The notes under the pieces: model-generated
What the model saw: only the letters and a program-made list of their open reading frames with translations
Database searches by the model: none
What the model was told of the DNA's origin: nothing
Shown here: piece after piece, positions 11,757 to 24,279 of the stretch
Numbering within the stretch: the stretch's first letter is position 1
Layout: each line of letters opens with the position of its first letter
DNA from: a virus
Taxonomy: Duplodnaviria > Heunggongvirae > Uroviricota > Caudoviricetes
IMG/VR virus record: IMGVR_UViG_3300037471_001733
Span: 22,201-86,200 of that record
DNA length: 64,000 bases
Strand: one strand, 5' to 3'
Made by a program: the position numbers and the translations under genes

Positions 11757-13513
11757 GGCGTCAGGACTTCCCAGAATGACTTTCCAGTGGACTCGGTGGT
11801 TCTGGACATCAAGCCCACGGCCATCACAGCCGCCACGATGAGGTCGATGCGGCCCGTGGCCTTTTCCTTGCTGAGCTTGCGGTTCTCGGCGTCATCCATC
11901 ACCGTCACCGCGTTGCTCGCACACCAGTTGAAAACTGGGTGGTCGTTGTGCGCCAACTCGTTGTTGAGCAGCATTCGCTCGAACTCTTCAACGGCTGGCG
12001 AAGCCTCTTTGTAACCTTGCCCGAACGCGACCATGGGCGGTAGGCTGATGCCTTCGTCGTCGGCAAGCGCCAGCAAGTCTTCGATGCGCCAGCGGTCGTA
12101 TGCGACGCCCTGGATCTCGAATGCCTCGGACAGCGCGGACAGCCGCTGCAGCACGTTGCGCTTGCTGATCGCGCGCCCCGGCGTGGTGTCCAAGTGCCCG
12201 GCAGCTTTCCACTGCACGTAGGGCACTCGATCGGTTTCGGCCTTCTTCTGCAGCCCCTCATCAGGCAGCCAGGCGAACGGCACTAGGTGCCACGGCTCGC
12301 CTTCCTCTTGCGGCTCAACCAGCAGCACCAGCCCCGTAAGGTCGGTGGTGGACGACAGGTCCAGCCCGGCCCAGGCTCGCCGGCCGCGCAGGTCTTGCCA
12401 GTTGAAGGTGCGAATCGCACTCTTCCAAACGTCGGCCGACAGCCACGGCGAATCGGCATCCGTCCACTGGCAGAAATTCAGCCGGCGGACGATCGCCTCC
12501 TTAGACGGCATGCCGCGCGCTTCGGTCACCTGCTCGCGCAGGTACTTCATGCCCGGCAGATCGGCGTCCTGCAGCGAAGGGTTGGCCTTCACCCAGCACG
12601 ACTCGTCCGAGAAAGGATCCTCGCCTTCATCTAGGGCGCACACGAAACTGAAGAACGCATCGTCCTCCAGCGTCCCCGCTGCGACCTTTGCGCCGTACTC
12701 GTGGTACGCCCAGCACGGCCCCCGTTTGTCGGAGCCGCTGTTGGTGATCATGAAGATCAGCGCCTGCCGCCGGCTCTTGGTGCCGGCGCGCATCATCTCC
12801 ACGACCGTGTTGGTCTTGTGCTCGTGCAGCTCGTCGATGAGCGCAATGTGCGGCCGCGGGCCGGACTGCCCATCGTCCGAGCTGATCGGGCGGAAGAAGC
12901 TGCCGGCCTGCAGGTAGGCCAGGTTCCACACCCGCTCGCCCGTGCCGCTCTTGGTCAGCCGCTTAGCGAGTTCCGGCGACTGGTCCACCATGGCCACCGC
13001 GTCGCGGAAGAGGATCATGGCCTGATCCTTCTTCGTCGCCGCAGCGTAGACCTCTGCGCGCGCCTCGCTGTCGGCGGTCAGGCCAAGAAGCCCAATGCCC
13101 GCCGAAAGGGGCGACTTCCCGGAGCCCTTGGCCGTCTCGACGTAGGCAACACGGAACCGCCGCCAGCCGTCAGAACCCTTCCAGCCGAACAGACTGCCGA
13201 TGACGAATTTCTGCCACGGCAGAAGCTCGAAGGGCTTTCCCTCAAAGTCGCCGCCGTTGAGCTTCAGGACGTTGCGGTAGTACCGCAGCGCCTTCAGGGC
13301 GGTCTCCAGGTCCCAATTCAGGCCGCGTGCCGGGCCTTTCTCCAGGTCGCGCAGGTGGCGCGCGCATGCCGCGCGCACATGCGGGCCGGCGATGCGTTTG
13401 CCGTCAACGACGGATTGGGCGTACTCGGTGACCGGATCGTCACCAGTCGGGACGTCAGCCGAAGAATTCCTGTAAGTGGTCTTCCTTTTGGTCGTCGTCG
13501 GCGTTTTGGACAT
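11753..13513 (-). CDS. terminase large subunit (Terminase_1 type)
   Basis: 586 aa; Walker-A-like VETAKGSGKS, LIDELHEH Walker-B-like, C-terminal nuclease region; follows TerS. Confidence 0.9.
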   Translation of the reverse strand: MSKTPTTTKRKTTYRNSSADVPTGDDPVTEYAQSVVDGKRIAGPHVRAACARHLRDLEKGPARGLNWDLETALKALRYYRNVLKLNGGDFEGKPFELLPWQKFVIGSLFGWKGSDGWRRFRVAYVETAKGSGKSPLSAGIGLLGLTADSEARAEVYAAATKKDQAMILFRDAVAMVDQSPELAKRLTKSGTGERVWNLAYLQAGSFFRPISSDDGQSGPRPHIALIDELHEHKTNTVVEMMRAGTKSRRQALIFMITNSGSDKRGPCWAYHEYGAKVAAGTLEDDAFFSFVCALDEGEDPFSDESCWVKANPSLQDADLPGMKYLREQVTEARGMPSKEAIVRRLNFCQWTDADSPWLSADVWKSAIRTFNWQDLRGRRAWAGLDLSSTTDLTGLVLLVEPQEEGEPWHLVPFAWLPDEGLQKKAETDRVPYVQWKAAGHLDTTPGRAISKRNVLQRLSALSEAFEIQGVAYDRWRIEDLLALADDEGISLPPMVAFGQGYKEASPAVEEFERMLLNNELAHNDHPVFNWCASNAVTVMDDAENRKLSKEKATGRIDLIVAAVMAVGLMSRTTESTGKSFWEVLTP

Positions 13514-13928
13514 GAACCTTGGACCTCGCGGCCGGCGTCAGCCCGAACTCGACCAGCCACGCCTTGAAGCGCCGGTCGGCATCGGCCAGCATGGCCACCG
13601 CCGGGTTCGCTTTGATGCTGCGGTCGCCCTGCGTGTTCGTTGTTTCGTAGGTAGGGCCGTCCTGGTTCACCAGTTCCTGATACCGCAGGATCTCGGCGTA
13701 CACGGCGCAGCCTCTCTCAAGGGCGTAGGCATCGGCCTCGGTTAGCACGCCCATCCGATCCAGCAGCACAGACATGCGGCCCCAGGCAACCTTGGCCTCG
13801 TCGGACAAGTGGCTGGGGCAACTAGGTATCTCGCGGCGTGGTTTGGGCTCGCTCTTGTTGAGCGCGCGCCTTCCCGGGTTGCCTGTAACTATTTTTAAGT
13901 GGCTCGGTTTTGGCCTGCGCCCCGCCAT
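13455..13928 (-). CDS. terminase small subunit, P27 family
   Basis: MAGRRPKPSHLKIVTGNPGRRALNKSEP...CPSHLSDEAKVAW matches P27-family TerS pattern. ATG 13928 chosen (AAGGA RBS, 4 nt after HNH stop); alternative ATG 13955. Confidence 0.8.
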   Translation of the reverse strand: MAGRRPKPSHLKIVTGNPGRRALNKSEPKPRREIPSCPSHLSDEAKVAWGRMSVLLDRMGVLTEADAYALERGCAVYAEILRYQELVNQDGPTYETTNTQGDRSIKANPAVAMLADADRRFKAWLVEFGLTPAARSKVHVQNADDDQKEDHLQEFFG

Positions 13929-13932
13929 ATCT

Positions 13933-14214
13933 CTATTCCTTGACTGGCCAGCCATCCACCCCGATCACCGGCCGAACTCGATGACCTAGATCTCGCGCCG
14001 TTTTGTCACGGTGACAGGGGGTACATAGCCCCTGAGCCTGGCCCGGGTCTTCGTGGAAGTCCTTGCCGCCGTTGACTAGCGCGACTTTGTGGTCCAACTG
14101 AGTTGCGGCAGCAAGTCGGCCATGGCGTGAGCACTCAGCACAAAGCGGGTTCAGCCGCAAGTAGTAGTCGCGGAACCGCTGCAGCGGGCGGCCACGCAAG
14201 CGATCAGTGGCCAT
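13933..14214 (-). CDS. HNH endonuclease (terminase-associated, HK97 gp74-like position)
   Basis: 93 aa; CAECSRHGR...LDHKVALVNGG...CTPCHRDKT HNH motif; immediately upstream of TerS. Confidence 0.85.
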   Translation of the reverse strand: MATDRLRGRPLQRFRDYYLRLNPLCAECSRHGRLAAATQLDHKVALVNGGKDFHEDPGQAQGLCTPCHRDKTARDLGHRVRPVIGVDGWPVKE

Positions 14215-14552: not shown

Positions 14553-15449
14553 CTATAACCCCAACTGCAGTTGACCAAGAGACTTGCTTCCCTTGGACCG
14601 GTTGCACCCAAAGCACTCGCACTGCGTGTTGCTATAGCTGTGTGGACCTCCATCGCGCAGGCTGACAACGTGACCAAGCTCCGGTGCGCCCTCAATCCTC
14701 TTGCCCATCTTCGACCTCGGCGTCTTAATGCCGCAAATCTTGCAGCGCCAGCCGTCGCGCTCAAAGACAGACAGCTTGTCCACCTTCTCGTACTCGCAGC
14801 CGAACTTTCTGGCGCGACGCCGATGCGTGGTGCCGCTAGTGGCTCTGTAACGGTAGCTCAGCTGACAGGCTATCGAGCAGTACTTTTGGCGCAGGTCGCC
14901 ATAGTCCGGCGTGAACGCAACTTCGCAGAAGCCGCACTTGCGAGGCGACCGGTCGCGGCTACGCTCTTGCTTCTTCCGATTGTAAACCTTGCTCCTGCAT
15001 TTGCTGCTACAGAAGTTCGCATCCGGCATCTTGGCCATGAAGTCGCGCCCGCAGGACGGGCTGGCGCAGACCCTGGCATAGCGCAGCTTATTCTGGCCGC
15101 GCTCCTTTTTCTCCGGCGCTGGAACGCACTCATAGCAGAACTTGCGCGGCTTGCCGTTCTTAAATAGTGGCTTTGGGTGGCGGCAGCCGTTTTCATTCCG
15201 GGTCCTGCACTCGTCGGAGCAATGACTGCGGCGCAGCTTCGTCGGCTTGAAGGGCATTCCACAGTAGGCGCATAACCGCGGCGGTTTCGGAGGCACGGGC
15301 GGATTCTTCCGTGGTCGTCCAGCGCCAGGACGGCGGCCGCCAGAGTTTGGACGCGGGCCACCGCGCTTTGAACGCGACGCCTCGACCAGTGCGCATAGCG
15401 CGCCTTTGCAGCCGCCAACAGACAGCCGCCTATACTCGCCTTCAACCAT
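14553..15449 (-). CDS. multi-zinc-ribbon protein with C-terminal HNH endonuclease domain (298 aa)
   Basis: Four CxxC...(F/Y)CSxxC repeats, Lys/Arg-rich, then WRCKICG...ELGHVVSLRDGGPHSYSNTQCECFGCNRSKG HNH motif. Confidence 0.75.
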   Translation of the reverse strand: MVEGEYRRLSVGGCKGALCALVEASRSKRGGPRPNSGGRRPGAGRPRKNPPVPPKPPRLCAYCGMPFKPTKLRRSHCSDECRTRNENGCRHPKPLFKNGKPRKFCYECVPAPEKKERGQNKLRYARVCASPSCGRDFMAKMPDANFCSSKCRSKVYNRKKQERSRDRSPRKCGFCEVAFTPDYGDLRQKYCSIACQLSYRYRATSGTTHRRRARKFGCEYEKVDKLSVFERDGWRCKICGIKTPRSKMGKRIEGAPELGHVVSLRDGGPHSYSNTQCECFGCNRSKGSKSLGQLQLGL

Positions 15450-15649
15450 GCTGACTTCCTATACAAGTTGGTATGGCCAGAGACCCGGTCGTGTTGCAAG
15501 CGCGACTGGGTTTCGCCATTTTGGCCTAGAACCAACAAATCTGCTGGACAAAACCACAGTTCCCAGGGCGCCAAGAATTTCCTCTCAAAACGCGCCTCTG
15601 AACAGCAAGGTCAACCGATGGTTTACAAGCCGAGGGCTGGGAAGAACTG

Positions 15650-16200
15650 ATTGGGGTATTGGGGGGTGCGCCTCGACTCTCCCCACGCCCAGCCGCGCCA
15701 GCTGTCAGCGCACGAGCTGCCGCTCAGCACGAGCTGCGCCGCTCGATCCCTGCTGGTGCTGGTGCTGCGCGTTGTCACGAGGGGTGCGGCGCCGCCTGGC
15801 TGTCGAGTGCCTGCGGTTATGTGGCGAGGGTCTGCCGCTGCGCCAGTGCACCCGGGCCGCTGCGCGGCCGTGCTCCTGGTGGTGGCGTGCTGGAGCTCCG
15901 ACCGATCGGCGCAGGCAAGCGCCATGGTGCGAACGGTGCACGAGGGAATGCGGCGCAGTGCTGGTGCCTGCGGCTTAGTGGAGTGCTGCGGCTTTGTGGA
16001 GTGGCGCAACTAGTGGAGTGCGCCGTGCTGCAGGGCATGGCGCCATGGACAGGGGTGCAGCGCTGCTGCGCCGCTGGTGCTGTCTCACCCGTGCCGATCG
16101 GCTTCCGCTGCAGGGGCGCTGGTGCTGGAATGCAGGCACCAAAGCAAAAGGGCCGCACGAGGCGGCCCATGGCGTGGAGTGCTTTGGTCTAGGTGCTGGC
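15650..16200 (+). repeat. non-coding, strand-asymmetric GTGC(T/G)G-rich array (array L)
   Basis: About 20 GTGC vs about 5 GCAC by hand count; local tandem units (GCACGAGCTGC x2 at 15709-15745; T(A/T)GTGGAGTG x3 at 15976-16022); no credible ORF. Confidence 0.6.
16141..16169 (-). terminator. rho-independent terminator ending the leftward small-gene operon
   Basis: GGGCCGC(16150-16156)/GCGGCCC(16162-16168), then CTTTTGCTTT on minus strand, 20 nt after stop at 16189. Confidence 0.7.
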
Positions 16201-16440
16201 GGCTTTCCGCTCCCGTCCTATACGGATGGCATGGGCAAGCGCGGCCATCTCCCGACCGTTGTCGTAAGGGCCGCGCGCCACCGGCTTTTTGCTGATGCCT
16301 GCGGCTGGCAGCAGGCCAACGAAGCCGGCTTCGTCCACGAAGTCTAGATATGTCATGGCGCCGATGGTCTTGACTGCGATGACACAAGCAACGCTGCCGC
16401 CGCCGATGGTGGGGCGCATGAAAAGGTCCCCGGCTTGCAT
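16189..16440 (-). CDS. hypothetical protein (83 aa)
   Basis: ORF, last gene of leftward operon; no motif recognised. Confidence 0.5.
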   Translation of the reverse strand: MQAGDLFMRPTIGGGSVACVIAVKTIGAMTYLDFVDEAGFVGLLPAAGISKKPVARGPYDNGREMAALAHAIRIGRERKAAST

Positions 16441-16452
16441 GGCGTCCCCTCC

Positions 16453-16746
16453 TCAGTGGGCCAGCAGATGCCGCACGCTGGCGCCATCCGGTATCCGCAG
16501 CATTGCCGCCACTGCATCCACGTATTCCGGTGCAGGCCGGCGCAATTTGTACTGCTGGTCTCCATACGAGTTGGGAATGGTGCGCGATTCAATCAAGCCG
16601 CGTTCCCTAAGCGCGCGGAATGCCCGGGTGTCATCTTCTGGCGCCACCTCAGCAGCGGCGGCAATGTCATGCCATGAGGGGAGACGGATAGTCCCGTCTG
16701 CATTGGTACGGGAAGCGAGCAGGGCATACAGACGATTGAGGTTCAT
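16453..16746 (-). CDS. hypothetical protein (97 aa), possible winged-helix DNA-binding protein
   Basis: Internal ATG 16746 chosen (upstream part of ORF is Arg-rich junk overlapping previous gene); FRALRERGLIESR... wHTH-like segment. Confidence 0.45.
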   Translation of the reverse strand: MNLNRLYALLASRTNADGTIRLPSWHDIAAAAEVAPEDDTRAFRALRERGLIESRTIPNSYGDQQYKLRRPAPEYVDAVAAMLRIPDGASVRHLLAH

Positions 16747-16757
16747 GGCGCGGCCCC

Positions 16758-17132
16758 TCAGATGTCCCAGACGCCATCCACGGTCGCGCCGTGCGCCGCC
16801 TCGTGGGCGTGCGCCGCGATGGCCGCCACGAGGCGCCCGCCGGGCGTTGCTTCCAACGTATCGCCCTCGCTGCACTGGTACTGCAGGCACCGCGCCAGCG
16901 AATGGAACCATGCGGCGGTCTGATTTGGCATGGGGCGCGCCAGCAGTGCACGCAGGCCCTGCAGCGGCTGCCGATCCTCCGGGTAACGCCCCTCATAGCG
17001 GGTTGCGTGGGCGTAGTTGTTGGCTGCACGCAGCGAGATAGCCGCCTGCGCCGCATCGTCGGCGATGCCCTGGGAAACGGCCCATTGCGCCACGGTGGCC
17101 ACGTGCAGATCAGAGCAGATAAAGCAAGACAT
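16758..17132 (-). CDS. hypothetical protein (124 aa)
   Basis: ORF with GGAGATCACACCATG RBS context; no motif recognised. Confidence 0.55.
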   Translation of the reverse strand: MSCFICSDLHVATVAQWAVSQGIADDAAQAAISLRAANNYAHATRYEGRYPEDRQPLQGLRALLARPMPNQTAAWFHSLARCLQYQCSEGDTLEATPGGRLVAAIAAHAHEAAHGATVDGVWDI

Positions 17133-17182
17133 GGTGTGATCTCCTATTGCCGCTCATGCTGGCGGCGCAGCGGGTTGAAGGG

Positions 17183-17452
17183 TTAGTCCTCGCGCGGTGT
17201 CTCAATTTGATGCGGCAGGGGTCGCCCCATGCCGTCGGCGCAGTAAAGGGACGTAGAAGCACCGCACGGCAGGTATGCCGGCGCGTCAATTGGCCCGCCT
17301 GCCGTCACATCCATACATGCCCCGTACCGAAATTGCCGCCGGTCTTGATGCAGATGGATCAATTCGACCGTCTGCCGTTGGACTTGCCCGCCGGTCACAT
17401 TGTGGAAAGCGCCAGCAGCAGCGCGGCGGATGGTTTCTGATTGCATGGACAT
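17183..17452 (-). CDS. hypothetical protein (89 aa)
   Basis: Starts at conserved junction TGAGGAGCGAACCATG (17450-17465). Confidence 0.5.
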   Translation of the reverse strand: MSMQSETIRRAAAGAFHNVTGGQVQRQTVELIHLHQDRRQFRYGACMDVTAGGPIDAPAYLPCGASTSLYCADGMGRPLPHQIETPRED

Positions 17453-17462
17453 GGTTCGCTCC

Positions 17463-17681
17463 TCAGTTGAAGCCCTTGTCCGCCTCGATCTGGCGCAGGA
17501 TCTCGACTGCCTCAGCGATCGGCACGAAGTCAGACAGGGGGTCAACAATCGTTTTCTTGCCCACGGTCACCAGCACGACGCGAAACTTTCCGCGCGCCGC
17601 CTCAGTGCTGATTCCGGGCATGCCGGTGGCGGCGCGCGCGGCAAGGGTGGCGGCTCGCAATTGCTTGAGTTGCTCAAACAT
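17463..17681 (-). CDS. hypothetical protein (72 aa)
   Basis: Starts at conserved junction TGAGGAGCGAACCATG (17679-17694). Confidence 0.5.
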   Translation of the reverse strand: MFEQLKQLRAATLAARAATGMPGISTEAARGKFRVVLVTVGKKTIVDPLSDFVPIAEAVEILRQIEADKGFN

Positions 17682-17691
17682 GGTTCGCTCC

Positions 17692-17931
17692 TCAGATACC
17701 GAAAACTTGATTGATCGCAGCGCGGCGCAGTGCCTCGCAGTGCATCTGCGCCACGGGTTGATTGATCTCGTCCACCACGTCAAGTGCATCGTTAACGGCA
17801 TCCATGAGATGCGCCATGGCGATATCTTCCGGGTTTGCTTCTACGTGATTGCGCAACTGCAGGCGGGCGCTCAGCAGGTTTTCGACGATCACGTCGAATT
17901 GCTTGACATGCATGGTCACAGGGGTGGGCAT
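17692..17931 (-). CDS. hypothetical protein (79 aa)
   Basis: Starts at related junction TGAAAGGTCGAGCCATG; helical sequence. Confidence 0.5.
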   Translation of the reverse strand: MPTPVTMHVKQFDVIVENLLSARLQLRNHVEANPEDIAMAHLMDAVNDALDVVDEINQPVAQMHCEALRRAAINQVFGI

Positions 17932-17942
17932 GGCTCGACCTT

Positions 17943-18176
17943 TCAGCGCATGTTGATGTAACCCGGCATGCCGAGTGCGCGCGCCAGCACGTTTGCCGCG
18001 TGGCGGTCTGCAAGGTTGCATATCAGGTACTTGGCCTGCGCGACCGCTTCGAAGTGCGCGCTCTGCGCCTCTTCGTATTCCTGATGGGTTCGATTGCTGT
18101 CGCCGATCATGTGCACGTGGCCACCGATGGCGGGCCGCAATTCCTTGGCGATGCTGATGGCAGTTCGGATATTCAT
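17943..18176 (-). CDS. hypothetical protein (77 aa)
   Basis: Starts at conserved junction TGAGGAGCGAACCATG (18174-18189). Confidence 0.5.
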   Translation of the reverse strand: MNIRTAISIAKELRPAIGGHVHMIGDSNRTHQEYEEAQSAHFEAVAQAKYLICNLADRHAANVLARALGMPGYINMR

Positions 18177-18186
18177 GGTTCGCTCC

Positions 18187-18318
18187 TCAGTGCGCCGCAC
18201 GAATGGCGGCAATGTCTGCATGGATCAGCGCGCGGACTTGCAGGCGGCGCACGAGGGATTGATCGTTGCGCATGGGTAGCAGAACCCGCAGCGCATACAT
18301 AAGAGAGAAACGAGACAT
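18187..18318 (-). CDS. hypothetical small protein (43 aa), first gene of leftward operon
   Basis: Below ORF-track cutoff. ATG 18318, stop inside the conserved junction; MSRFSLMYALRVLLPMRNDQSLVRRLQVRALIHADIAAIRAAH. Confidence 0.4.
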   Translation of the reverse strand: MSRFSLMYALRVLLPMRNDQSLVRRLQVRALIHADIAAIRAAH

Positions 18319-18366
18319 CTCAACCCCTTGCCACTGATTACGCGCGGCGCCGTTTGGTATGTCTCT

Positions 18367-18395
18367 AATGTAGGCGATACGACTACATGATGCAA
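18367..18395 (-). promoter_or_regulatory. candidate sigma70-type promoter with embedded operator (copy A, leftward)
   Basis: Minus strand reads TTGCAT-catgtagtcgtatcgcc-TACATT (17-nt spacer); spacer carries TGTAG-N9-CTACA inverted repeat. Confidence 0.55.
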
Positions 18396-18419
18396 GCCCT
18401 TGCGCAAACTTTTTTCATG

Positions 18420-18660
18420 CGCCATGGCGGCGCGGCTGCACGTATATTGATAGTGCTGCGCCGCATAGGTGCGGCTTTGCTTTGCCTGCTCGCTTTTGCC
18501 TGCTGGTGCTGCAGCATGGGCACGAGTGCCTGCGCCATGGATGCGCCGCACTGGTCTGCGCGCCGTGCGCCGCCTCGTGCTGATCAGCTGCGCCGCCGGT
18601 CGAGCTGGTGCGCGACGTTGAGCGGCTGCCTCGTGCTGGCAATCGAGCGAGTGCGCGACC
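18420..18660 (+). repeat. non-coding GTGC(T/G)G-rich array (array R), related to array L
   Basis: About 9 GTGC on plus strand; shares exact words cctgctggtgctg (13 nt) and cgagtgcctgcg (12 nt) with 15.65-16.2 kb, same orientation. Confidence 0.55.
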
Positions 18661-18667
18661 TGGCGCA

Positions 18668-18764
18668 CCCCCTCTGATGGAAACACAGGCAACCCCCTGG
18701 AGTGGAAACACAGGCCAGGCGCACCCTCTCCACGGGAATTACGGAACCCCCTGAGATGGAAACA
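18668..18764 (+). repeat. four tandem iteron-like units CCCCCT-N4-TGGAAACA(CAGG)
   Basis: Copies at 18668-18685, 18693-18710, 18747-18764 plus degenerate 18723-18739 (CCCTCT-N4-GGGAATTA); 24-30 bp spacing; array ends 20 bp upstream of promoter copy B. Confidence 0.65.
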
Positions 18765-18784
18765 GGAATTCACAAATAAACTAC

Positions 18785-18813
18785 TTGCGTTCTGTAGTCG
18801 TTGCGCCTACATT
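18785..18813 (+). promoter_or_regulatory. candidate promoter with embedded operator (copy B, rightward)
   Basis: TTGCGT-tctgtagtcgttgcgcc-TACATT (17-nt spacer); nearly identical to copy A in inverted orientation. Confidence 0.55.
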
Positions 18814-18872
18814 GGACACATCGCAGCACTGCTGCAGCGGCGCCACCCGCGACGAGTGGCACTGGAGTTGAT

Positions 18873-19547
18873 ATGTTTGGAAAATACGGCAAGCGGATTA
18901 CCGATCCTGCGGAACTGCGCGAGTATCGTTTGAGCTATGTCCCGGCCGCGCTGCGCGACCAGTGCCAGCACGTGAAGTGCAAAACCGGCGATGCTGAGGC
19001 GTGGATCTGGAGCGACAAGGGCCGCGCCTACGCGGTGGGTTTCTCCGGTCGCGGCAAACACCCGTGGTCGCGCAATGGTGGCCAGGGAGCGGCCTACTAC
19101 TTCAAAACCCCGGAAGCGCGCCGCTCCTGGGTTGCGGAACTGTTTGCAGACGCCATGGCCGACGCAAAGCGCGCCGAGGAGCGCAAGGCGCAAAAGGCCG
19201 CAGCGCGTGCAAAGCCGCACGCCTTGCAGGTGGGAGATGTGTTGCGCTCCTCCTGGGGGTACGACCAAACCAATATCGACTATTACGAGGTCACGAAGCT
19301 TGTCGGCTCACAGATGGTCGAGGTTCGGCGCATTGCCTGCCAGTCTGAGGAAACCGCGCACATGCAAGGCGTGAGCGTTCCCGCCCCTGGCCACTACATC
19401 GGCGAGCCGAAGCGTTGCAAGGTCTCCGACTACGGCAACCGCGACTCGGTCAAGGTGTCCGAGGTGGCGCACGCCTACAAGATGACCCCGCGCATCGTCG
19501 GCGGCGTCAAGGTTTTCAACTCGTCTAGCTGGACGGCCTACGCCTGA
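18873..19547 (+). CDS. hypothetical protein (224 aa), type I associate with plasmid/ICE accessory regions (memory only)
   Basis: ATG 18873 with GGAG RBS; basic/Ala-rich linker then VGDVLRSSWGYDQTNIDYYEVTKLVG... beta domain. Confidence 0.55.
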   Translation: MFGKYGKRITDPAELREYRLSYVPAALRDQCQHVKCKTGDAEAWIWSDKGRAYAVGFSGRGKHPWSRNGGQGAAYYFKTPEARRSWVAELFADAMADAKRAEERKAQKAAARAKPHALQVGDVLRSSWGYDQTNIDYYEVTKLVGSQMVEVRRIACQSEETAHMQGVSVPAPGHYIGEPKRCKVSDYGNRDSVKVSEVAHAYKMTPRIVGGVKVFNSSSWTAYA

Positions 19548-19554
19548 TCAACCA

Positions 19555-19575
19555 GGGCCGCTCATGCGGCGGCCC
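19555..19575 (+). other. GC-rich stem-loop after the 224-aa gene (weak terminator/attenuator candidate)
   Basis: GGGCCGC(19555-19561)/GCGGCCC(19569-19575), no clear U-tract. Confidence 0.3.
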
Positions 19576-19605
19576 CCTTACGTGAATTTCACAGGAGCAC
19601 CGACC

Positions 19606-19908
19606 ATGGGCACCACGACCGGCCGACTCTTCCGCACGATCCGCAGCACGGGACGTGGAAGCGACTACTTCGGCACCTGCGACCAGTGCGGCAAGCACAT
19701 GAGCGAATGCCACGTGAGCCAAGTTCAGCGCGAATATCGGCGCGACGATGGCACCACGTACACCGGGCCCGTGACCGGCGGCGCCTATGGGCATCGTGAG
19801 TGCTTGGTCAAGCACTTCGGCGAACCCGTCCCAGCGGTGACGCGCGAATCCGTGCGAGTTTCGCCCTTTACTGATCCGGCGCGCTTCCCCAAAACGCTGC
19901 GCGCCTGA
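19606..19908 (+). CDS. hypothetical Cys/His-containing protein (100 aa)
   Basis: RBS cAGGAGcaccgaccATG; CDQCGKH...ECH...HREC possible zinc site. Confidence 0.5.
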   Translation: MGTTTGRLFRTIRSTGRGSDYFGTCDQCGKHMSECHVSQVQREYRRDDGTTYTGPVTGGAYGHRECLVKHFGEPVPAVTRESVRVSPFTDPARFPKTLRA

Positions 19909-19944
19909 CCCCTTCCGTAGATTGCACAGCAGGAGCACCACACC

Positions 19945-20340
19945 ATGGGAGCAGCAGCAGAACACCGGGGCAATGCCCTGATCCGCAGGCAGGCCGGCGC
20001 AGCGCATGCCGCGCGCCAAGCCATCGAGGACGCAGCGCGCGCCGCGCAGGTGGCCGAGGACTGCAACGAGTTTGCCCGCCAAGCGTGGGCGTATCTGCTC
20101 GACCCTTCCGGCCTGCGGCAACCCGCAGTGGAGCGCGCAAAGACTCGGCGCGGCTGGGCTAAGCGCCATGCGGAACTCAGTGCCGCGCATTGCGCATGGG
20201 TTGATGCGGACCATCGCAACGCCATGGCCTACCTTAGCGCCTGCATCCGCCGCGCGAAAGCCGCGCATGCGCTACTCACATTTGCGCTGGGCGGCTGGAC
20301 GATCCCGGATCACATTGAAGTGCCGCGCGCTGCGGCTTGA
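19945..20340 (+). CDS. hypothetical helical protein (131 aa)
   Basis: RBS cAGGAGcaccacaccATG; stop embedded in TGACCCCTTCC motif. Confidence 0.5.
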   Translation: MGAAAEHRGNALIRRQAGAAHAARQAIEDAARAAQVAEDCNEFARQAWAYLLDPSGLRQPAVERAKTRRGWAKRHAELSAAHCAWVDADHRNAMAYLSACIRRAKAAHALLTFALGGWTIPDHIEVPRAAA

Positions 20341-20349
20341 CCCCTTCCG

Positions 20350-20405
20350 GCGCACTCGCAAGGGTGCGCATTGCGATGCAGCCACGCGGAAGCATCGCAA
20401 TGCGC
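20350..20405 (+). promoter_or_regulatory. two mutually exclusive RNA hairpins (attenuator-like)
   Basis: GCGCAC(20350-55)/GTGCGC(20364-69) overlaps left arm of perfect 14-bp stem GCGCATTGCGATGC(20366-79)/GCATCGCAATGCGC(20392-405). Confidence 0.4.
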
Positions 20406-20453
20406 CAGCGCGCATAACGGCGCCGTCCCGGCTTGAGGCGGCAGGAGATTCAG

Positions 20454-22262
20454 ATGTCAGCACAAGACTTGATTGTTAGGATCAACGCAGCCGCCCAGGT
20501 GGCCCCGGAGCAACTGCCCAAAGGGGCGCAGCCGCGCGACCACATGATTGCCTTTGAGTACACCGACGCCCACGGCACGCGCGGCTGCATGCGCATCCTG
20601 AACACCCGGGCGCGGCTGCTGGCCTTCGCTGAGCAGGTGCGGAAGAACGCGGCAGCATTCGACGGCAAGCCGCGCAGCAAGCCCGCCGGGCCGCGCAAGA
20701 TTGCCGGCGCATCCCCGCTTTCCACGGCGCGCGCACTGCTCAAGGATGGCGCGCGGGTTGAAGCCCTCGCAGCGCTTGAGGCGCGCGGCGGGGAGGTGTT
20801 TTTCGGCGCCGCTGGCGTGCCTGTGCTGCATCAGGTTGCACAGCGCGTGGAGCACGAGGGCCGCCGCTGGGTTGTCACGCGCTGCGCCGTTGATGGTCTC
20901 ATCTACCTCATTCACGAGGCGTCCGGGCTGTCAGCAGGCGGCAAGGGCTTGCCTGAGATGCGCAGCATTGCGGATGCCCTGGCGCGGCTTGAGCTCGTGC
21001 ACCGGGACGAGGCGGAAAACGGCTACCGGCAGCGAATGATTGCTGCGATCGAGCAAGCGGCGGATTACGACCAGCAGGCGGCGCGCGCGGCTTTCGAGGC
21101 GTGCGATGGTCTCAAGAGCAAGGATGCCGCGCCGGTGGCTCAGGAAGCGTACCAGCAGGCGCGCGCGCTGTCGGCGGCGCAGGTGGCGCCCGATGTCGAG
21201 CCGGCAGTAGATGCAGACCCCTCCCCGGTGGAAAGCGAAGCCGAGGCGGCACCCCCTGTAGCGGAAACGCCTGCGGCAGCTGACACCCCTGCAGCGGAAA
21301 TCGAGTCCAGCGCGCCGGCGGTTGCGCCAGCATCCCCTCCGGCGGATTCACAGGCAGGCGCTGCACCCCCTGCGATGGAAAGCGCGCAGCCTGCGCCGCT
21401 TGCCACCGCGCCAGGCCGATCGGATGCGCTCATCGCGCGGGCCATCGCTTGGGTTGCCGTAGTCTGGGGAACCGCCAGCGTGCCGAGCGTTGCGGACTAC
21501 CGCGCCGGCCGGTGCGATGACACATTCCCGTGGGCGGGCGGCAGCCGCGCCGCCGGCTATCTGACATGGGCCGACCTCATTGGCGAGTGCATGGCCGCGC
21601 TGGAGCGCGACGACAGCGCCGACCAGGCGGCACGAGACGCCGCACTGCAACCACCGACCCCCATCCGTAGGAAAGGCCCGCGACAACATGAGCAGCACAC
21701 CCCATCCCGTGCAACCCGCAGTGCCAACCGGCCGCGAGTGGTGGACCCGCGGGCTGCTCGACTGGCACGCCGAGGCGCTGCACGCCGCCCAGGAGATCGC
21801 CGCGCTGCGCGAATCACTGGCTGCGGAGCGCGCAATGGTCCGCGAGCTGCAGGAGGCGCTCGCTGCCCGCCGGCAGGCCGCTTGACCCCTTCCCGGGGAA
21901 TCACGGCGCCACAAGCTTGCCGCCCCTGGCGCGACGCCAGCGAAACCCGAGACTGCACCCATAAAAACCTGGAGCACAGCATGACCTACACCGAAGCCAT
22001 CCAAGCCCTGCGCGACGCTATTGCGCAGGCCCCGAAGGGTGAAAAGCTGCAAGCCTTCCAAGCCAAGCGGGAGAAGATAATAGGGGCAATGCCCAAGGTG
22101 GAAATCTGTGGCGGCGAGCAGTGCATCCGCTATCCCAAGGGCTACCGCTTTGACTGCGGTCGCGAGGTCCACACGGACTGGATGTGGCAACCGTTTGCCA
22201 GCGAGGAAATCGCCATGCGGCCTGGCAACCTGCCGTACATCCTGCGCATGCCGGCTGCCTGA
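20454..22262 (+). CDS. long open frame; N-terminal ~400 codons look like a real two-domain protein with Pro/Ala/Glu repeat linker; 3' end probably composite
   Basis: AGGAG RBS before ATG 20454. No in-frame stop for 1.8 kb; frame turns Arg-rich (junk-like) from about 21660 to 21980, then is in frame with the 93-aa ORF. Confidence 0.4.
   Translation: MSAQDLIVRINAAAQVAPEQLPKGAQPRDHMIAFEYTDAHGTRGCMRILNTRARLLAFAEQVRKNAAAFDGKPRSKPAGPRKIAGASPLSTARALLKDGARVEALAALEARGGEVFFGAAGVPVLHQVAQRVEHEGRRWVVTRCAVDGLIYLIHEASGLSAGGKGLPEMRSIADALARLELVHRDEAENGYRQRMIAAIEQAADYDQQAARAAFEACDGLKSKDAAPVAQEAYQQARALSAAQVAPDVEPAVDADPSPVESEAEAAPPVAETPAAADTPAAEIESSAPAVAPASPPADSQAGAAPPAMESAQPAPLATAPGRSDALIARAIAWVAVVWGTASVPSVADYRAGRCDDTFPWAGGSRAAGYLTWADLIGECMAALERDDSADQAARDAALQPPTPIRRKGPRQHEQHTPSRATRSANRPRVVDPRAARLARRGAARRPGDRRAARITGCGARNGPRAAGGARCPPAGRLTPSRGITAPQACRPWRDASETRDCTHKNLEHSMTYTEAIQALRDAIAQAPKGEKLQAFQAKREKIIGAMPKVEICGGEQCIRYPKGYRFDCGREVHTDWMWQPFASEEIAMRPGNLPYILRMPAA
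21218..21382 (+). repeat. five copies of CCCC(C)T-N4-6-(T/C)GGA(A/T)(A/T) motif inside the linker-coding region
   Basis: Copies starting 21218, 21252, 21286, 21334 (degenerate), 21366; 32-48 bp spacing; encode PSPVESE/PPVAET/TPAAEIE/SPPADSQ/PPAMESA. Confidence 0.55.
21688..21885 (+). CDS. hypothetical coiled-coil protein (65 aa), nested in another frame of the long ORF
   Basis: AGGAAAGG RBS; protein-like sequence (REWWTRGLLDWHAEALHAAQEIAALRESLAAERAMVRELQEAL); stop in TGACCCCTTCC motif. Confidence 0.5.
   Translation: MSSTPHPVQPAVPTGREWWTRGLLDWHAEALHAAQEIAALRESLAAERAMVRELQEALAARRQAA
21981..22262 (+). CDS. hypothetical protein (93 aa)
   Basis: RBS ctGGAGcacagcATG; protein-like composition. 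Confidence 0.5.
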   Translation: MTYTEAIQALRDAIAQAPKGEKLQAFQAKREKIIGAMPKVEICGGEQCIRYPKGYRFDCGREVHTDWMWQPFASEEIAMRPGNLPYILRMPAA

Positions 22263-22404
22263 CGCATTGTCCGGTGGCGCAGCCTTTGGCGTTCAGCGCT
22301 ATTTGAACAAGGTGCGCGGTTTAGTTCAGGCGTACTTGAATAGCGCCCCCCCATGTAGTGAAAACAGGGCATCAACCCCATCCAGCGGATACAGGAGTCA
22401 AACC

Positions 22405-22695
22405 ATGGGAAGTATCAACCTCGGCCGCCACCACGTCGCCATCAGCGATCAATGGACGATCTACACCCCTGGCCTACCTGGCTGGCAGATGCTGGGCGTG
22501 ATCACCCGCAGCAAGGGTGGCGAGCAGATCACGAAGGCGCTGGCCCGCAGCCCGAAGGGCGAGCTCTGCGCGGTGCGTGGGCTGTCAGCCGAGCCGCTTG
22601 TCCAGCGAAAGGCTGAAGCGGCGCTGGCGGCTGCGATGCGCGAGGCCCATCCGGTGGAAACAGATGGCACCCATTCCGAGGGAAACAGGGCTTGA
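22405..22695 (+). CDS. hypothetical protein (96 aa)
   Basis: RBS acAGGAGtcaaaccATG. Confidence 0.5.
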   Translation: MGSINLGRHHVAISDQWTIYTPGLPGWQMLGVITRSKGGEQITKALARSPKGELCAVRGLSAEPLVQRKAEAALAAAMREAHPVETDGTHSEGNRA

Positions 22696-22719
22696 ATATG
22701 TAGGTTAAGCGCCTACACT
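22692..22719 (+). promoter_or_regulatory. candidate promoter with embedded operator (copy C), apparently leaderless for the 76-aa HTH gene
   Basis: TTGAAT-atgtaggttaagcgcc-TACACT (16-nt spacer), TGTAGG-N7-CCTACA palindrome in spacer; ATG 22726 lies 6 nt after the -10. Confidence 0.55.
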
Positions 22720-22725: not shown

Positions 22726-22956
22726 ATGAGCACCTTACCGCCGCGCACGCCAGAGAACATCAAAGCCTTCCGCCAGCGTGCCGGCTGGACGCAGGAGAAG
22801 GCATGCGAGATGGCGTGCATCCACGACCGCCAAACCTGGCGTAAGTACGAAAACGGCACGCTCAAGATGAGCGAAGAGCGCTGGCGGCTGGCGCACTTTA
22901 TGGCCAACCTGCACCCCGACTTCGACGTTCGGCCGCGTACCAAGGCTGCGGCCTAG
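22726..22956 (+). CDS. XRE-family helix-turn-helix regulator (76 aa)
   Basis: IKAFRQRAGWTQEKACEMACIHDRQTWRKYENG...RWRLAHFMANLHPDF typical XRE/MqsA-like HTH pattern. Confidence 0.65.
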   Translation: MSTLPPRTPENIKAFRQRAGWTQEKACEMACIHDRQTWRKYENGTLKMSEERWRLAHFMANLHPDFDVRPRTKAAA

Positions 22957-22989: not shown

Positions 22990-23334
22990 TCAACCGTTTG
23001 GGTTCTGTGCCAGCCAAGCCCGGATCATCGCCTTGACCGCGGCGTGCAGGCCGTGTGGCGCGTAGACGCCACGCACTTCCTCGATACCTCTTTCCTTGAG
23101 CAGGGCCCTTCTTGCTCGATTCCTCTCTGTCGAGCTCTTCCCCGAAGGGGCTTTCGCGGTGGCGTTCATGAGCAGTTCCGTGCCATCGATTTTCTTCTCA
23201 GGCAAGGAGCAGGGGGCCAGTTCGCACTCTGCGGGAGCATTTGAGGGGGGCGGTTTGTTCTCGACCATTTGGCATTGACCCGTCGCGCGCGACGGTCCAT
23301 CATTCTTCGCTTTTCGACGATCAGAAGCCGCCAT
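22990..23334 (-). CDS. small basic DNA-binding-type regulator (start uncertain; 55-114 aa)
   Basis: C-terminus STERNRARRALLKERGIEEVRGVYAPHGLHAAVKAMIRAWL resembles small plasmid/phage basic-region regulators; alternative ATG at 23169. Confidence 0.45.
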   Translation of the reverse strand: MAASDRRKAKNDGPSRATGQCQMVENKPPPSNAPAECELAPCSLPEKKIDGTELLMNATAKAPSGKSSTERNRARRALLKERGIEEVRGVYAPHGLHAAVKAMIRAWLAQNPNG

Positions 23335-23568
23335 AAGTTGTGATGCGGCCGGAGTGCGCTAGTTGCAAGAACTATCAATTGGCATTCTCAAGGCGCAAGC
23401 GTGTCTTGCCAAGACTTTGTTGCACAGAGAGCGGCATGGATGCCGCTTTTGCGTTTGTGCAATCACCTCGAAAGGTTCCTGCCAGAGGATGCCGCCGATT
23501 GCCCACTATGGGGCAGGAACCAGTTCCACAATCGAAGCGCCACGCACTACGAAGAGTGGAGTTGCGCC

Positions 23569-24279
23569 ATGGACTGCGGCAAGAGAAGAACATGGGAGTG
23601 TGGCGTGACAACGAACTCTAAGAGGCTTTCTGGTAGACCATCTTTTAATTGGTCTATACCTGAGCCAGAAGAAGTTAAAGAAGTTAGATTGAAAGCCAAT
23701 TTGTCTCAGAGAGAAGCTTGTAATCTTTCTGGGATTAAAGAAGTAATGACTTGGAGTAATTGCGAAACTAGGAGAGCCGATGGCACTCCTAAGGCCCGCA
23801 TGGACCCAATTAGATGGGAATATTTCCTTCTAATAGTTGGACAACATTCCAAATTCGTTATTCTTCCGAGACTCGGGGTTGAACAGCCAAGAGAGGCGGC
23901 AGCTTTAACTAGGAAAGGTCCGTCTCTGCCTGGGGAGAACATTACTTTCGCAGTCGAGAGCCGAACTAGTGAAGACGAGTGGCGCTTGGTAGAAGGCGGA
24001 CAGTTCACAGCTCTGACTGCGGCATGTGTGGCCATAGACACGATGGTTGCCTGCAGGAACCTAAATGAACTAAGGGTGTCGCGTTACTCAGGTGGCGACT
24101 TCGTGATGGCAGTGCATGGGCCTGGTGTCTCTATGGACGAAGGCCCGAAGCGTTTTACCCATGCAAAGGCTGCGCCATCTCGAAGGACTGGGACTGACAG
24201 GAACGGAGCAGACCCAGGAGACCCAGATAATGATGGAAATGGAAGCAGAAATTCCAATGGTTTCGACCCTCAGGATTGA
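23569..24279 (+). CDS. low-GC HTH-fusion protein (236 aa): N-terminal XRE-type HTH, C-terminal ~130-aa unknown domain, acidic/Gly/Asn tail
   Basis: VKEVRLKANLSQREACNLSGIKEVMTWSNCE...PIRWEYFLLIVGQH HTH pattern; AT-rich codons (AGA, TTA, AAA) unlike rest of window. Confidence 0.6.
   Translation: MDCGKRRTWECGVTTNSKRLSGRPSFNWSIPEPEEVKEVRLKANLSQREACNLSGIKEVMTWSNCETRRADGTPKARMDPIRWEYFLLIVGQHSKFVILPRLGVEQPREAAALTRKGPSLPGENITFAVESRTSEDEWRLVEGGQFTALTAACVAIDTMVACRNLNELRVSRYSGGDFVMAVHGPGVSMDEGPKRFTHAKAAPSRRTGTDRNGADPGDPDNDGNGSRNSNGFDPQD

What the first reader, a model, noticed from the sequence alone, without database searches (positions are those of the whole stretch)
18367..18813. One promoter-operator design used three times (two divergent copies here, third at 22692-22719)
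The three copies are:
- Copy A (minus strand, 18367-18395): TTGCAT-catgtagtcgtatcgcc-TACATT.
- Copy B (plus strand, 18785-18813): TTGCGT-tctgtagtcgttgcgcc-TACATT.
- Copy C (22692-22719): TTGAAT-atgtaggttaagcgcc-TACACT.

Each spacer carries the inverted repeat TGTAG-N9-CTACA with a conserved CGCCTACA right half, so a dimeric regulator bound there would occlude RNA polymerase.

Copy C sits 6 nt upstream of the ATG of the 76-aa XRE-type HTH gene. This gives an apparently leaderless transcript, suggesting autoregulation and making that protein the prime candidate repressor of the whole module.
Basis: seen in the sequence. Interest (0 to 1): 0.6.

Follow-up and report, generated by a model that had tools for sequence, protein, structure and literature searches.

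The report
Phage repressor controlling three matching promoters
Three look-alike promoters inside a prophage each carry the same 19-bp palindrome, which is very probably the binding site of a small Aca10-type repressor encoded right after the third copy; this is a known kind of phage switch, here controlling 13 genes of unknown, possibly anti-defence, function.

Summary
The window holds exactly three TGTAG-N9-CTACA palindromes, at 18369-18387, 18793-18811 and 22699-22717. Each lies inside a TTGnnT-N16/17-TACAyT promoter, and these are the only three such promoters in 64 kb.

- **Family.** The 76-aa HTH (22726-22956) has no close relatives. It belongs to a sparse XRE family whose solved member is Aca10, an anti-CRISPR-associated repressor that binds a 19-bp palindrome over its promoter.
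- **Same palindrome elsewhere.** In unrelated phage contigs, family members sit beside the same palindrome type: TGTAGCGG-N3-CCGCTACA in L212, L240 and L247.
- **Same layout as copy C.** L247 reproduces it exactly: operator, TACACT, 6 nt, ATG. This supports autoregulation from a leaderless mRNA.
- **Multiple operators.** Relatives also carry two or three operator-promoters per locus.

The module is an accessory island between the phage's early/Nin-type genes and the HNH/terminase genes. It has a leftward operon of 8 small genes and a rightward operon of 5 genes plus the HTH. None has a known family.

This is a new member of a known kind. An anti-defence function is plausible but untested. GGAAACA repeat arrays upstream of copies B and C remain unexplained.

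The parts
18367..18395 (-). Copy A: promoter-operator TTGCAT-N17-TACATT, with the 19-bp palindrome at 18369-18387. The predicted start is A18360, giving a 42-nt leader. It drives the leftward operon.
18785..18813 (+). Copy B: promoter-operator TTGCGT-N17-TACATT, with the palindrome at 18793-18811. The predicted start is A18820, giving a 53-nt leader. It drives the rightward operon. An AT-rich stretch lies directly upstream.
22692..22719 (+). Copy C: promoter-operator TTGAAT-N16-TACACT, with the palindrome at 22699-22717. The predicted start is A22726, the A of the HTH gene's ATG, so the mRNA would be leaderless.
   Evidence: same layout in L247, L240 and L224
22726..22956 (+). 76-aa Aca10-family XRE HTH protein, the proposed autorepressor and repressor of copies A and B.
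16189..18318 (-). Leftward operon of eight small genes (43, 77, 79, 72, 89, 124, 97 and 83 aa). None has a known family, except that the 97-aa product (16453-16746) has a sub-threshold HTH_Crp_2 match.
   Evidence: gene calls of the identical contig L200
16150..16168 (-). Terminator-like hairpin with a T run that ends the leftward operon.
18873..22695 (+). Rightward operon of five genes (224 aa, which is phrog_37844; 100, 131, 602 and 96 aa). It lies upstream of copy C and the HTH gene. No function is known.
18311..18398 (-). Arm 1 of the inverted duplication: promoter A, its leader and the ribosome-binding site.
18782..18880 (+). Arm 2 of the inverted duplication: promoter B, its leader and the ribosome-binding site.
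18667..18769 (+). Array of 24-25-nt direct repeats, ACCCCCTnnnnnGGAAACA, upstream of copy B. Their role is unknown. They may be a site for a second regulator.
22643..22691 (+). Two more GGAAACA units immediately upstream of copy C. They overlap the 3' end of the 96-aa gene.
23569..24279 (+). 236-aa protein. Residues 33-101 are a paralog of the 76-aa HTH (32% identity, E 4.5e-8), but the recognition helix differs. It is an alternative or second regulator.

Best explanation
The three sites are sigma-70-type promoters. Each is overlapped, from just after the -35 into the first four bases of the -10, by a 19-bp palindromic operator centred at about -18.

A dimer of the module's own 76-aa Aca10-family HTH protein binds this operator and shuts RNA polymerase out. 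It thereby represses three things:
- the divergent leftward operon (8 small genes);
- the divergent rightward operon (5 genes);
- through copy C, its own gene, which is transcribed as a leaderless mRNA.

On entry into a cell without repressor, all three promoters would fire. The poorly translated leaderless message would delay repressor build-up. The operons would then be switched off, and copy C would hold the repressor at a steady level in the lysogen.

The cargo is an accessory island lying between the phage's early/Nin-type genes and the HNH/terminase genes. It most plausibly encodes counter-defence proteins.

**Shown.** The sites, their non-random nature, promoter geometry, family membership of the HTH, and conservation of the design in relatives.

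**Inferred.** Binding, repression, transcription starts, leaderless translation and cargo function.
For: **Sites.**
- The three sites are unique and far above chance.
- The operator centre falls at -18 from the predicted start in all three copies (my count).
- Spacers of 16-17 nt are optimal, so no MerR-type activation is needed.
- Between A and B the arms are identical, while the operator centre, the two bases after the -35 and one -35 base differ.

**Protein.**
- Pfam HTH_31.
- Only 80 relatives among 1.84 billion representative proteins.
- The family profile hits Aca10 (7xi5) at E 1.5e-16 over its full length.
- The window HTH and Aca10 both match an independent family profile, with probabilities of 98.7% and 99.0%.
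- The AF2 model has pLDDT 88.5. Its best fold matches are small dimeric XRE repressors: C.Kpn2I, C.Esp1396I, and Aca10 with a TM-score of 0.81 normalised to the target.

**Comparative evidence.**
- Exact TGTAG-N9-CTACA lies next to family HTH genes in L212, L240 and L247.
- L247 reads TGTAGCGGATACCGCTACACT-gtcgac-ATG, the same layout as copy C. L240 has an 8-nt gap.
- L224 carries a symmetric change on both arms (GTAACGG...CCGTTAC). Its HTH also has a changed turn.
- 11 perfect TA-R-NN-S-N3-S-NN-Y-TA palindromes occur in 10 of 37 family loci. My rough estimate of the chance number is about 1. In almost all of them (10 of the 11 shown) the final TA starts a -10-like hexamer.
- L239 has three operator-promoters in one locus.

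**Context.**
- In L213 a 43%-identical homolog closes an opposite-strand operon that holds an AcrVA2-like gene, between NinB and terminase.

**Translation signal.**
- The HTH gene has no Shine-Dalgarno sequence. Nearly all other module genes have GGAG 6-9 nt upstream.

**Literature.**
- Aca10 binds a 19-bp palindrome that obscures its promoter (PMC9410881).
- In each Aca family examined, one inverted repeat always lies inside the core promoter (PMC9410906).
- Aca proteins are predicted to control up to three neighbouring operons (PMC13551039).
Against: - No experiment exists, and the organism and phage have no close sequenced relative. There is no covariation test for this exact protein-operator pair.
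- The window HTH is the most divergent family member. Its recognition helix reads DRQTWRKYENG where the family has xxxRWSEYERG. Its operator shares only the outer TGTAG with the L212/L240/L247 operators; the inner bases are KCG where theirs are CGG.
- A and B are duplicates, so they count as one evolutionary event.
- Two other DNA-binding candidates are encoded in the module.
- No cargo gene matches any known Acr, anti-defence or defence family. In L224, L240 and L247 the HTH stands alone after terL rather than closing an operon. In several relatives the neighbouring gene encodes a small secreted protein. The anti-defence reading is therefore weak.
- The hexamers match the consensus at only 7-8 of 12 positions.
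Confidence: 0.75

Rival explanations
1. The palindrome is a real operator, but a different protein binds it. Candidates are the 236-aa paralogous HTH protein (23569-24279), the 97-aa winged-HTH-like product of the leftward operon (16453-16746), or a phage or host factor encoded outside the module.
For: - The 236-aa protein carries a homologous HTH domain (32% identity, E 4.5e-8).
- The 97-aa product has a sub-threshold HTH_Crp_2 match (E 1.8e-5).
- The window HTH has an unusual recognition helix compared with relatives that use TGTAGCGG operators.
Against: - In L247, L240 and L224 the operator sits directly on the promoter of the short HTH gene, exactly as copy C does.
- The paralog's recognition helix differs (EVMTWSNCE against DRQTWRKYE). 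Its own upstream region carries different palindromes, GGAACCAGTTCC and CCGTCGCGCGCGACGG.
- No TGTAG site lies near the phage's main early control region at 44-45 kb.
Confidence: 0.12
2. The 76-aa protein works as a dual activator-repressor, like restriction-modification controller (C) proteins or lambda CI at PRM. In that case it would not be a pure repressor.
For: - The best fold matches are C proteins, and the family profile hits C.Kpn2I at E 5.7e-6.
- Many C genes are leaderless and have a distal activating box plus a proximal repressing box (PMC2632904).
- L240, L247 and L224 have a second operator 48-58 bp upstream and poor -35 elements.
Against: - Each window promoter has a single palindrome centred at -18, covering the spacer and the -10. 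That position occludes polymerase.
- All three promoters have a TTG -35 and an optimal spacer.
- No restriction or methylase gene is detectable in the module.
Confidence: 0.08
3. The similarity is only shared ancestry of duplicated promoter cassettes, and the palindrome has no function.
For: - A and B are clearly duplicates that include the leader and ribosome-binding site.
- L001 and L002, with a 46%-identical homolog of the 224-aa protein, have similar -10 and leader sequences but no TGTAG-N9-CTACA palindrome.
Against: - Within the duplicates the arms are invariant, while the centre and the flanks differ.
- Copy C shares little beyond the hexamers and the arms.
- The same palindrome recurs beside homologous HTH genes in unrelated contigs.
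Confidence: 0.04
4. Copies A and B are recombination sites: inverted repeats that flank an invertible 387-bp segment. Inversion would move the GGAAACA array from promoter B to promoter A.
For: - A and B form 38-nt inverted repeats that flank an asymmetric segment.
Against: - No recombinase is detectable in the module.
- The only other copy of this DNA (L200) has the same orientation and is 100% identical.
- Copy C and the relatives are not explained.
Confidence: 0.01

Closest known systems
Aca10 (anti-CRISPR-associated protein 10, PDB 7XI5) and its acrIC7-acrIC6-aca10 promoter
   Same: - It belongs to the same sequence family at profile level.
- It is a small four-helix XRE HTH.
- Its operator is a 19-bp palindrome that overlaps the core promoter, including the -10, of the operon it closes (PMC9410881, PMC9410906).
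   Different: - The direct pairwise match is only marginal (E 0.19).
- The operator sequences differ: ATACGCTCATTGAGCGTAT for Aca10, TGTAGKCG-N3-CGCCTACA here.
- The window gene has its own third promoter and a leaderless start, rather than being only co-transcribed with the cargo.
- No validated acr gene is present.
Aca regulators that control several neighbouring anti-defence operons (Aca1, Aca2, Aca11, Aca13, Aca14; PMC13551039)
   Same: One regulator gene serves up to three copies of the same inverted repeat in the promoters of adjacent operons, in (pro)phage accessory regions.
   Different: - Those cases are mostly predictions for other Aca families.
- Two of the window's promoters are a divergent, duplicated pair that share leader and ribosome-binding site.
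- No conserved 5'-UTR hairpin was found.
Controller (C) proteins of type II restriction-modification systems (C.PvuII, C.AhdI, C.Esp1396I, C.Kpn2I)
   Same: - These are XRE HTH dimers of about 75-80 aa, and they are the best fold matches.
- They autoregulate through palindromic boxes just upstream of their own gene.
[quoted passage not shown]
   Different: - No restriction or methylase genes are present.
- C-boxes come as a distal activating box and a proximal repressing box, about 17-18 nt from the ATG.
- The window has one operator over the -10, ending 8 nt from the ATG, which predicts repression only.
Lambda CI at PRM, and the P22 immI region (Mnt/Arc)
   Same: - lambda cI is also made from a leaderless, autoregulated transcript.
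- P22 immI is a secondary, self-contained repressor-operator module with divergent promoters, placed among late genes. Both statements are from my own knowledge.
   Different: - There is no S24 peptidase or oligomerisation domain, and no sign of tripartite operators.
- The module is not the phage's main immunity region, which lies near 44-45 kb.
- Mnt and Arc are ribbon-helix-helix proteins.

Membership tests
Aca10-type anti-CRISPR-associated regulator | Sequence homology to Aca10 over the whole HTH domain | tested here: met
   - The profile of the window HTH's relatives hits 7xi5 at E 1.5e-16.
- The window HTH matches an independent family profile (A2) at 98.7% probability, and Aca10 matches it at 99.0%.
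- The direct pairwise match is only E 0.19, so membership is transitive.
Aca10-type anti-CRISPR-associated regulator | Small all-helical XRE HTH that acts as a symmetric dimer | tested here: inconclusive
   - The AF2 model has four helices and pLDDT 88.5.
- Foldseek lists Aca10 with a TM-score of 0.81 normalised to the target.
- Dimerisation could not be modelled with these tools. The palindromic site only implies a dimer.
Aca10-type anti-CRISPR-associated regulator | Inverted repeat within the core promoter of its own transcription unit | tested here: met
   - The copy C palindrome spans the spacer and the -10 directly upstream of the gene.
- The same layout occurs in L247, L240 and L224.
- Binding itself is not testable with these tools.
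Aca10-type anti-CRISPR-associated regulator | Genetic linkage to a validated anti-CRISPR gene | tested here: not met
   - None of the 13 cargo proteins matches any Pfam, PHROG function, PADLOC or NCBIfam family.
- Only a relative, L213, has a precomputed AcrVA2-like neighbour.
- The protein is therefore Aca10-like in sequence and design, but it cannot be called an Aca.
Restriction-modification controller (C) protein | Linked restriction endonuclease or methyltransferase genes | tested here: not met
   No nuclease or methylase family was found among the module proteins. The HNH gene at 14553-15449 belongs to the terminase cluster.
Restriction-modification controller (C) protein | Paired C-boxes, a distal activating box and a proximal repressing box, about 17-18 nt from the start codon | tested here: not met
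   Each promoter has a single palindrome, which ends 8 nt before the ATG in copy C. The window has no second TGTAG-type site nearby.
Restriction-modification controller (C) protein | Leaderless transcript of the regulator gene | tested here: inconclusive
   The sequence fits: the -10 ends 6 nt before the ATG, there is no Shine-Dalgarno sequence, and no alternative start codon exists. The transcription start has not been mapped.
Sigma-70 promoter | -35 TTGnnn and -10 TAnnnT hexamers 16-18 nt apart, placed upstream of a gene | tested here: met
   - All three copies have TTG and TAnnnT with 16-17-nt spacers. The combined pattern is unique to the three sites.
- Each copy lies upstream of an operon or gene start.
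- The match to consensus is only 7-8 of 12 positions, so the generic scan did not flag them.
Lambda-type CI immunity repressor | C-terminal S24 peptidase or oligomerisation domain, and location at the main early divergent control region | tested here: not met
   The protein is 76 aa and consists of the HTH only. The main early control region is at about 44-45 kb, between the O-like/DnaC-like genes and the RecT/RdgC arm.

The most novel reading that the evidence does not exclude
The island may be run by two layers of control.
- **Layer 1.** The 76-aa Aca10-like repressor acts at the TGTAG palindromes of all three promoters.
- **Layer 2.** A second regulator binds the GGAAACA direct-repeat arrays, which are present only upstream of copies B and C.
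- **Candidate for layer 2.** The most likely protein is the paralogous 236-aa HTH, whose own upstream region carries GGAACCAGTTCC.
- **Consequence.** Such a factor, acting as activator or anti-repressor, would let the rightward operon and the repressor gene be controlled separately from the leftward operon. Together with a dedicated leaderless repressor promoter, this would be a regulatory hierarchy not described for Aca-type loci.
Probability: 0.15. Interest if true: 0.6.

Novelty: new member of a known kind. Interest (0 to 1): 0.4.

Why it matters
**A concrete operator class.** The work gives an operator class, TGTAG-N9-CTACA, more generally TA-R-NN-S-N3-S-NN-Y-TA ending in the -10, for a sparse, mostly unannotated branch of the Aca10/MqsA-like HTH family. 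Relatives repeat the same design, including multi-promoter use and a near-leaderless regulator gene.

**Candidate cargo genes.** Thirteen tightly regulated phage genes of unknown function are flagged as candidates for early-expressed accessory or counter-defence proteins. Screening Aca-regulated neighbours in this way is how new anti-defence genes are currently found (PMC13551039).

**Limits.** It does not change any concept. Repressor-operator occlusion, autoregulation and leaderless regulator mRNAs are all established.

Tried and rejected
**Close relatives of the DNA or the HTH: none found.**
- Megablast of 14-28 kb against phages and plasmids found nothing.
- tblastn of the HTH against phages found nothing.
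- The IMG/VR scan with the HTH found nothing.
- The word-indexed protein search found only the protein itself.
- The only other contig (L200) is 100% identical.

**Operator-pattern scans of public collections gave only chance hits.**
- I scanned viral, genome and metagenome contigs.
- The hits were singletons in unrelated low-GC contigs, with no shared proteins.
- Relatives had to be reached through the protein family instead.

**Synteny through the 224-aa protein.** It has 520 relatives, but none of the 80 loci retrieved for them shares any other module gene.

**RNA explanations rejected.**
- No Rfam family reaches threshold.
- The A-B spacer and the three leaders fold no better than shuffles.

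**Function of the cargo.** Pfam, PHROGs, PADLOC and NCBIfam gave nothing.

**Structure.**
- The single-sequence AF2 model was too poor to use (pLDDT 57). It was redone with a family alignment.
- The fold search cannot separate Aca from C proteins, because all E-values are about 0.02-0.1 for so small a domain.

**GGAAACA tandem pattern.** No match in IMG/VR.

**MerR-type activation** was rejected because the spacers are 16-17 nt, not 19-20.

**Origin-of-replication iterons** were considered for the GGAAACA arrays. I did not pursue this. The phage's O-like and DnaC-like genes lie at 40.8-42.7 kb, and no replication protein is recognisable in the module.
Full report
**1. The observation**

Reading the window confirms all three sequences at the stated coordinates.
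- Copy A, minus strand 18395->18367: TTGCAT-CATGTAGTCGTATCGCC-TACATT.
- Copy B, 18785-18813: TTGCGT-TCTGTAGTCGTTGCGCC-TACATT.
- Copy C, 22692-22719: TTGAAT-ATGTAGGTTAAGCGCC-TACACT.

The sites are far above chance.
- TGTAG-N9-CTACA occurs exactly three times in 64 kb. Allowing one mismatch adds one more hit. Shuffles give a mean of 0.39, and none of 100 reaches four.
- Read as a symmetric operator, TGTAGKCG-N3-CGMCTACA, the sites score 16, 16 and 14 of 16. The next best site scores 13, which is chance level. Shuffles give 0.1 sites at 14 or more.
- The promoter frame TTGnnT-N16/17-TACAyT exists only at these three places, against a shuffle mean of 0.08. TACAyT itself is under-represented, 8 against 22.5 expected.

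Three refinements apply.
- The right arm's TACA forms the first four bases of the -10.
- A and B are arms of an inverted duplication: 38 nt at 82%, with weaker similarity continuing through the leader to the ribosome-binding site. They therefore count as one evolutionary event.
- The hexamers match the consensus at only 7-8 of 12 positions, which is why the generic scan missed them.

Taking the purine 7 nt after each -10 as the start (A18360, A18820, A22726), the operator centre lies at -18 in all three copies.

**2. Context**

The window is a lambdoid/HK97-like prophage of about 64% G+C.
- Small terminase lies at 13455-13955, with an HNH gene at 14553-15449 and terminase large subunit, portal and head genes further left, all on the minus strand.
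- An O-like HTH_36 protein and a DnaC-like loader lie at 40.8-42.7 kb on the minus strand. RecT and RdgC lie at 50-56 kb on the plus strand.

The module therefore sits between the early/Nin-type block and the HNH/terminase cluster. This is a typical position for accessory genes.

Gene calls come from an identical public contig (L200, 100% over 13.9 kb).
- The leftward operon has eight small genes (43-124 aa, 18318->16189) and ends at a terminator-like hairpin.
- The rightward operon has five genes (224, 100, 131, 602 and 96 aa, 18873-22695).
- Copy C and the 76-aa HTH gene follow.

None of the 13 cargo proteins matches a Pfam, PADLOC or NCBIfam family. The 224-aa protein belongs to phrog_37844, which has no known function.

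**3. The regulator**

- The 76-aa protein matches Pfam HTH_31 (E 1.1e-6).
- It is isolated. The word-indexed search of 5.8 billion clusters found only the protein itself.
- Exhaustive HMMER over 1.84 billion representatives found 80 hits at E <= 1e-3. The best single-domain hits are about 41% identical.
- These hits form a coherent family of 65-95-aa proteins. The consensus is PTPxxIxxARxxAGLTQxQAAELVxLGxxxRWSEYERGxxxMDxARWELFLLKTGQHP.
- The family profile hits Aca10 (PDB 7XI5) at E 1.5e-16 over its full length. This is well ahead of MqsA (8.5e-8), Aca3 and the C proteins.
- Against an independent profile built without it (A2), the window protein scores 98.7% probability (E 4.7e-16). Aca10 scores 99.0%.
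- With the family alignment, AF2 gives a confident four-helix model (pLDDT 88.5).
- Foldseek returns small dimeric XRE repressors: C.Kpn2I, C.Esp1396I, Aca10 and Aca1. The E-values are too weak to rank them.

Aca10 is a dimer that binds a minimal 19-bp palindrome obscuring the promoter of its acr operon (PMC9410881).

**4. Comparative test of the operator**

DNA-pattern scans of public collections gave only chance hits. I therefore fetched loci that encode family members, 37 loci in all.

The same palindrome type lies beside the HTH genes in three unrelated contigs.
- L212 has TTGTTT-cgg-TGTAGCGGTTTCCGCTACAGT at the head of a small-gene operon that ends in the HTH.
- L240 has two sites.
- L247 has TGTAGCGGATACCGCTACACT-gtcgac-ATG(HTH). 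This is the copy C layout down to the TACACT -10 and the 6-nt gap.
- L240 and L224 have an 8-nt gap.

L224 carries GTAACGG-AAA-CCGTTAC, a change on both arms. Its HTH also has a changed turn, HKI where L240 and L247 have DKA. This is one anecdotal case of protein-operator co-variation.

Across the 37 loci, 11 perfect palindromes of the form TA-R-NN-S-N3-S-NN-Y-TA occur in 10 loci. My rough estimate of the chance number is about one. In almost all of them (10 of the 11 shown) the last TA begins a -10-like hexamer such as TATGAT, TATACT, TACAGT or TACACT.

L239 and L252 carry three operator copies, two of them in clear TTGCGx-type promoters. Reuse of one design at several promoters, and a regulator gene that starts a few bases after its own -10, are therefore family traits. 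A seven-sequence alignment of window and foreign promoters keeps GTA...C...TACA.T invariant.

**5. Leaderless start**

- The ORF begins at the first possible start codon after an in-frame stop.
- No start codon lies between M1 and the HTH.
- The 25 nt upstream contain no Shine-Dalgarno sequence, whereas nearly all other module genes have GGAG 6-9 nt upstream.
- The relatives keep the 6-8-nt distance.

This is the arrangement known for lambda cI at PRM (my own knowledge) and for many C-protein genes, where it is thought to add a delay (PMC2632904). It remains a prediction.

**6. Mechanism and function**

The most likely mechanism is steric repression by an HTH dimer at -18 on all three promoters, with negative autoregulation through copy C.
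- The 16-17-nt spacers argue against MerR-type activation.
- The single site over the -10 argues against the C-protein activate-then-repress scheme.
- Relatives with a second upstream site and poor -35 elements may work differently.

What the cargo does is unknown. The anti-defence idea rests on three points.
- The HTH belongs to the Aca10 family.
- In L213 a 43%-identical homolog closes an opposite-strand operon with an AcrVA2-like gene, at the same position between NinB and terminase (this Pfam hit was precomputed, and I could not reproduce it with the Pfam copy at hand).
- The literature shows Aca proteins governing up to three neighbouring counter-defence operons (PMC13551039).

Three points count against it.
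- No cargo gene has a known Acr relative.
- Several relatives pair the HTH with a small secreted cysteine protein.
- In L224, L240 and L247 the HTH stands alone after terL.

I put repression by this HTH at about 0.75 and anti-defence cargo at about 0.35.

**7. Rivals**

- A different binder is possible. The 236-aa protein at 23569-24279 has a paralogous HTH (E 4.5e-8), and the 97-aa product has a weak winged-HTH match.
- Against this, the copy C layout in relatives ties the operator to the short HTH. The paralog also has a different recognition helix and different palindromes near its own gene.
- Pure duplication without function is contradicted by invariant arms against variable centre and flanks, and by recurrence in unrelated contigs.
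- An invertible-segment reading has no recombinase and no second orientation.

**8. Unexplained**

- Five of the six GGAAACA heptamers in the window form 24-25-nt direct-repeat arrays immediately upstream of copies B and C, but not A. Their distance to the -35 differs, 27 nt at B and 11 nt at C. They have no counterpart in IMG/VR.
- They may mark a second regulatory layer.

**9. Verdict**

- It is a new, divergent member of a known kind: an Aca10-like autorepressor with promoter-embedded palindromic operators that governs neighbouring operons.
- Interest is moderate.

Noticed in passing
18667-18769 and 22643-22691 (+): Tandem 24-25-nt units, ACCCCCTnnnnnGGAAACAcagg, lie directly upstream of promoters B and C but not A. 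They hold 5 of the 6 GGAAACA heptamers in the 64-kb window. The binder and role are unknown.
   Followed up: partly
23569-24279 (+), with palindromes at 23280-23295 and 23516-23527: A second HTH protein of 236 aa has an N-terminal domain paralogous to the 76-aa HTH. Upstream lie a 16-bp perfect palindrome, CCGTCGCGCGCGACGG, inside a TTGACC-N17-CATCAT promoter-like site, and a unique GGAACCAGTTCC 42 nt before its ATG.
   Followed up: partly
17450-17466, 17679-17695, 18174-18190 (-): An identical 17-nt junction, CTGAGGAGCGAACCATG (stop codon, ribosome-binding site, start codon), occurs three times between small genes of the leftward operon. The genes are not detectably paralogous. This suggests cassette shuffling at a standard junction.
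   Followed up: partly
16156-16174 (+), 16787-16805 (-), 18561-18579 (-): A 19-21-nt repeat, CACGAGGCGGCGCACGGCG, is shared by the operon terminator, the coding region of the 124-aa gene and the A-B spacer.
   Followed up: no
20454-22262 (+): The 602-aa ORF looks composite. The middle third is Arg-rich and reads like the wrong frame, while the overlapping ORF 21580-21885 has the better third-position G+C there. This could be a frameshift, overlapping genes or three separate genes.
   Followed up: partly
15450-16150: About 700 bp of non-coding, GC-rich, internally repetitive DNA lies between the HNH/terminase cluster and the module. It could be the cos site or the late promoter region. A sub-threshold Rfam SymR-like hit lies at 15444-15517 (31 bits against a gathering score of 61).
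   Followed up: no
window 18814-18825; L001 about 445-460; L002 about 4118-4130; L212 615-625; L214 4984-4992; L217 about 3845-3855: The motif CACATCG (or ACATCGC) sits at the predicted transcription start, 3-4 nt after the -10, in promoters of several otherwise unrelated phage contigs. This suggests a conserved initial transcribed sequence.
   Followed up: no
L212 851-1099, L216 4790-4999, L217 4762-5001, L222 3762-4001: In four family loci the gene just upstream of the HTH encodes a conserved protein of about 70-80 aa with a signal-peptide-like N-terminus and two cysteines (...VSCxxxxS...YRYGSQVFxxxFxxWCPxxVEV). This is not a typical cytoplasmic anti-CRISPR.
   Followed up: no
protein P0002: The best non-self hit of the HTH among the representative proteins is a 4162-aa protein with 24 tandem copies of this HTH domain.
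   Followed up: no
whole window: The hexamer TACAyT is strongly depleted: 8 occurrences against about 22.5 in shuffles. Three of the eight are the -10 elements described here.
   Followed up: no
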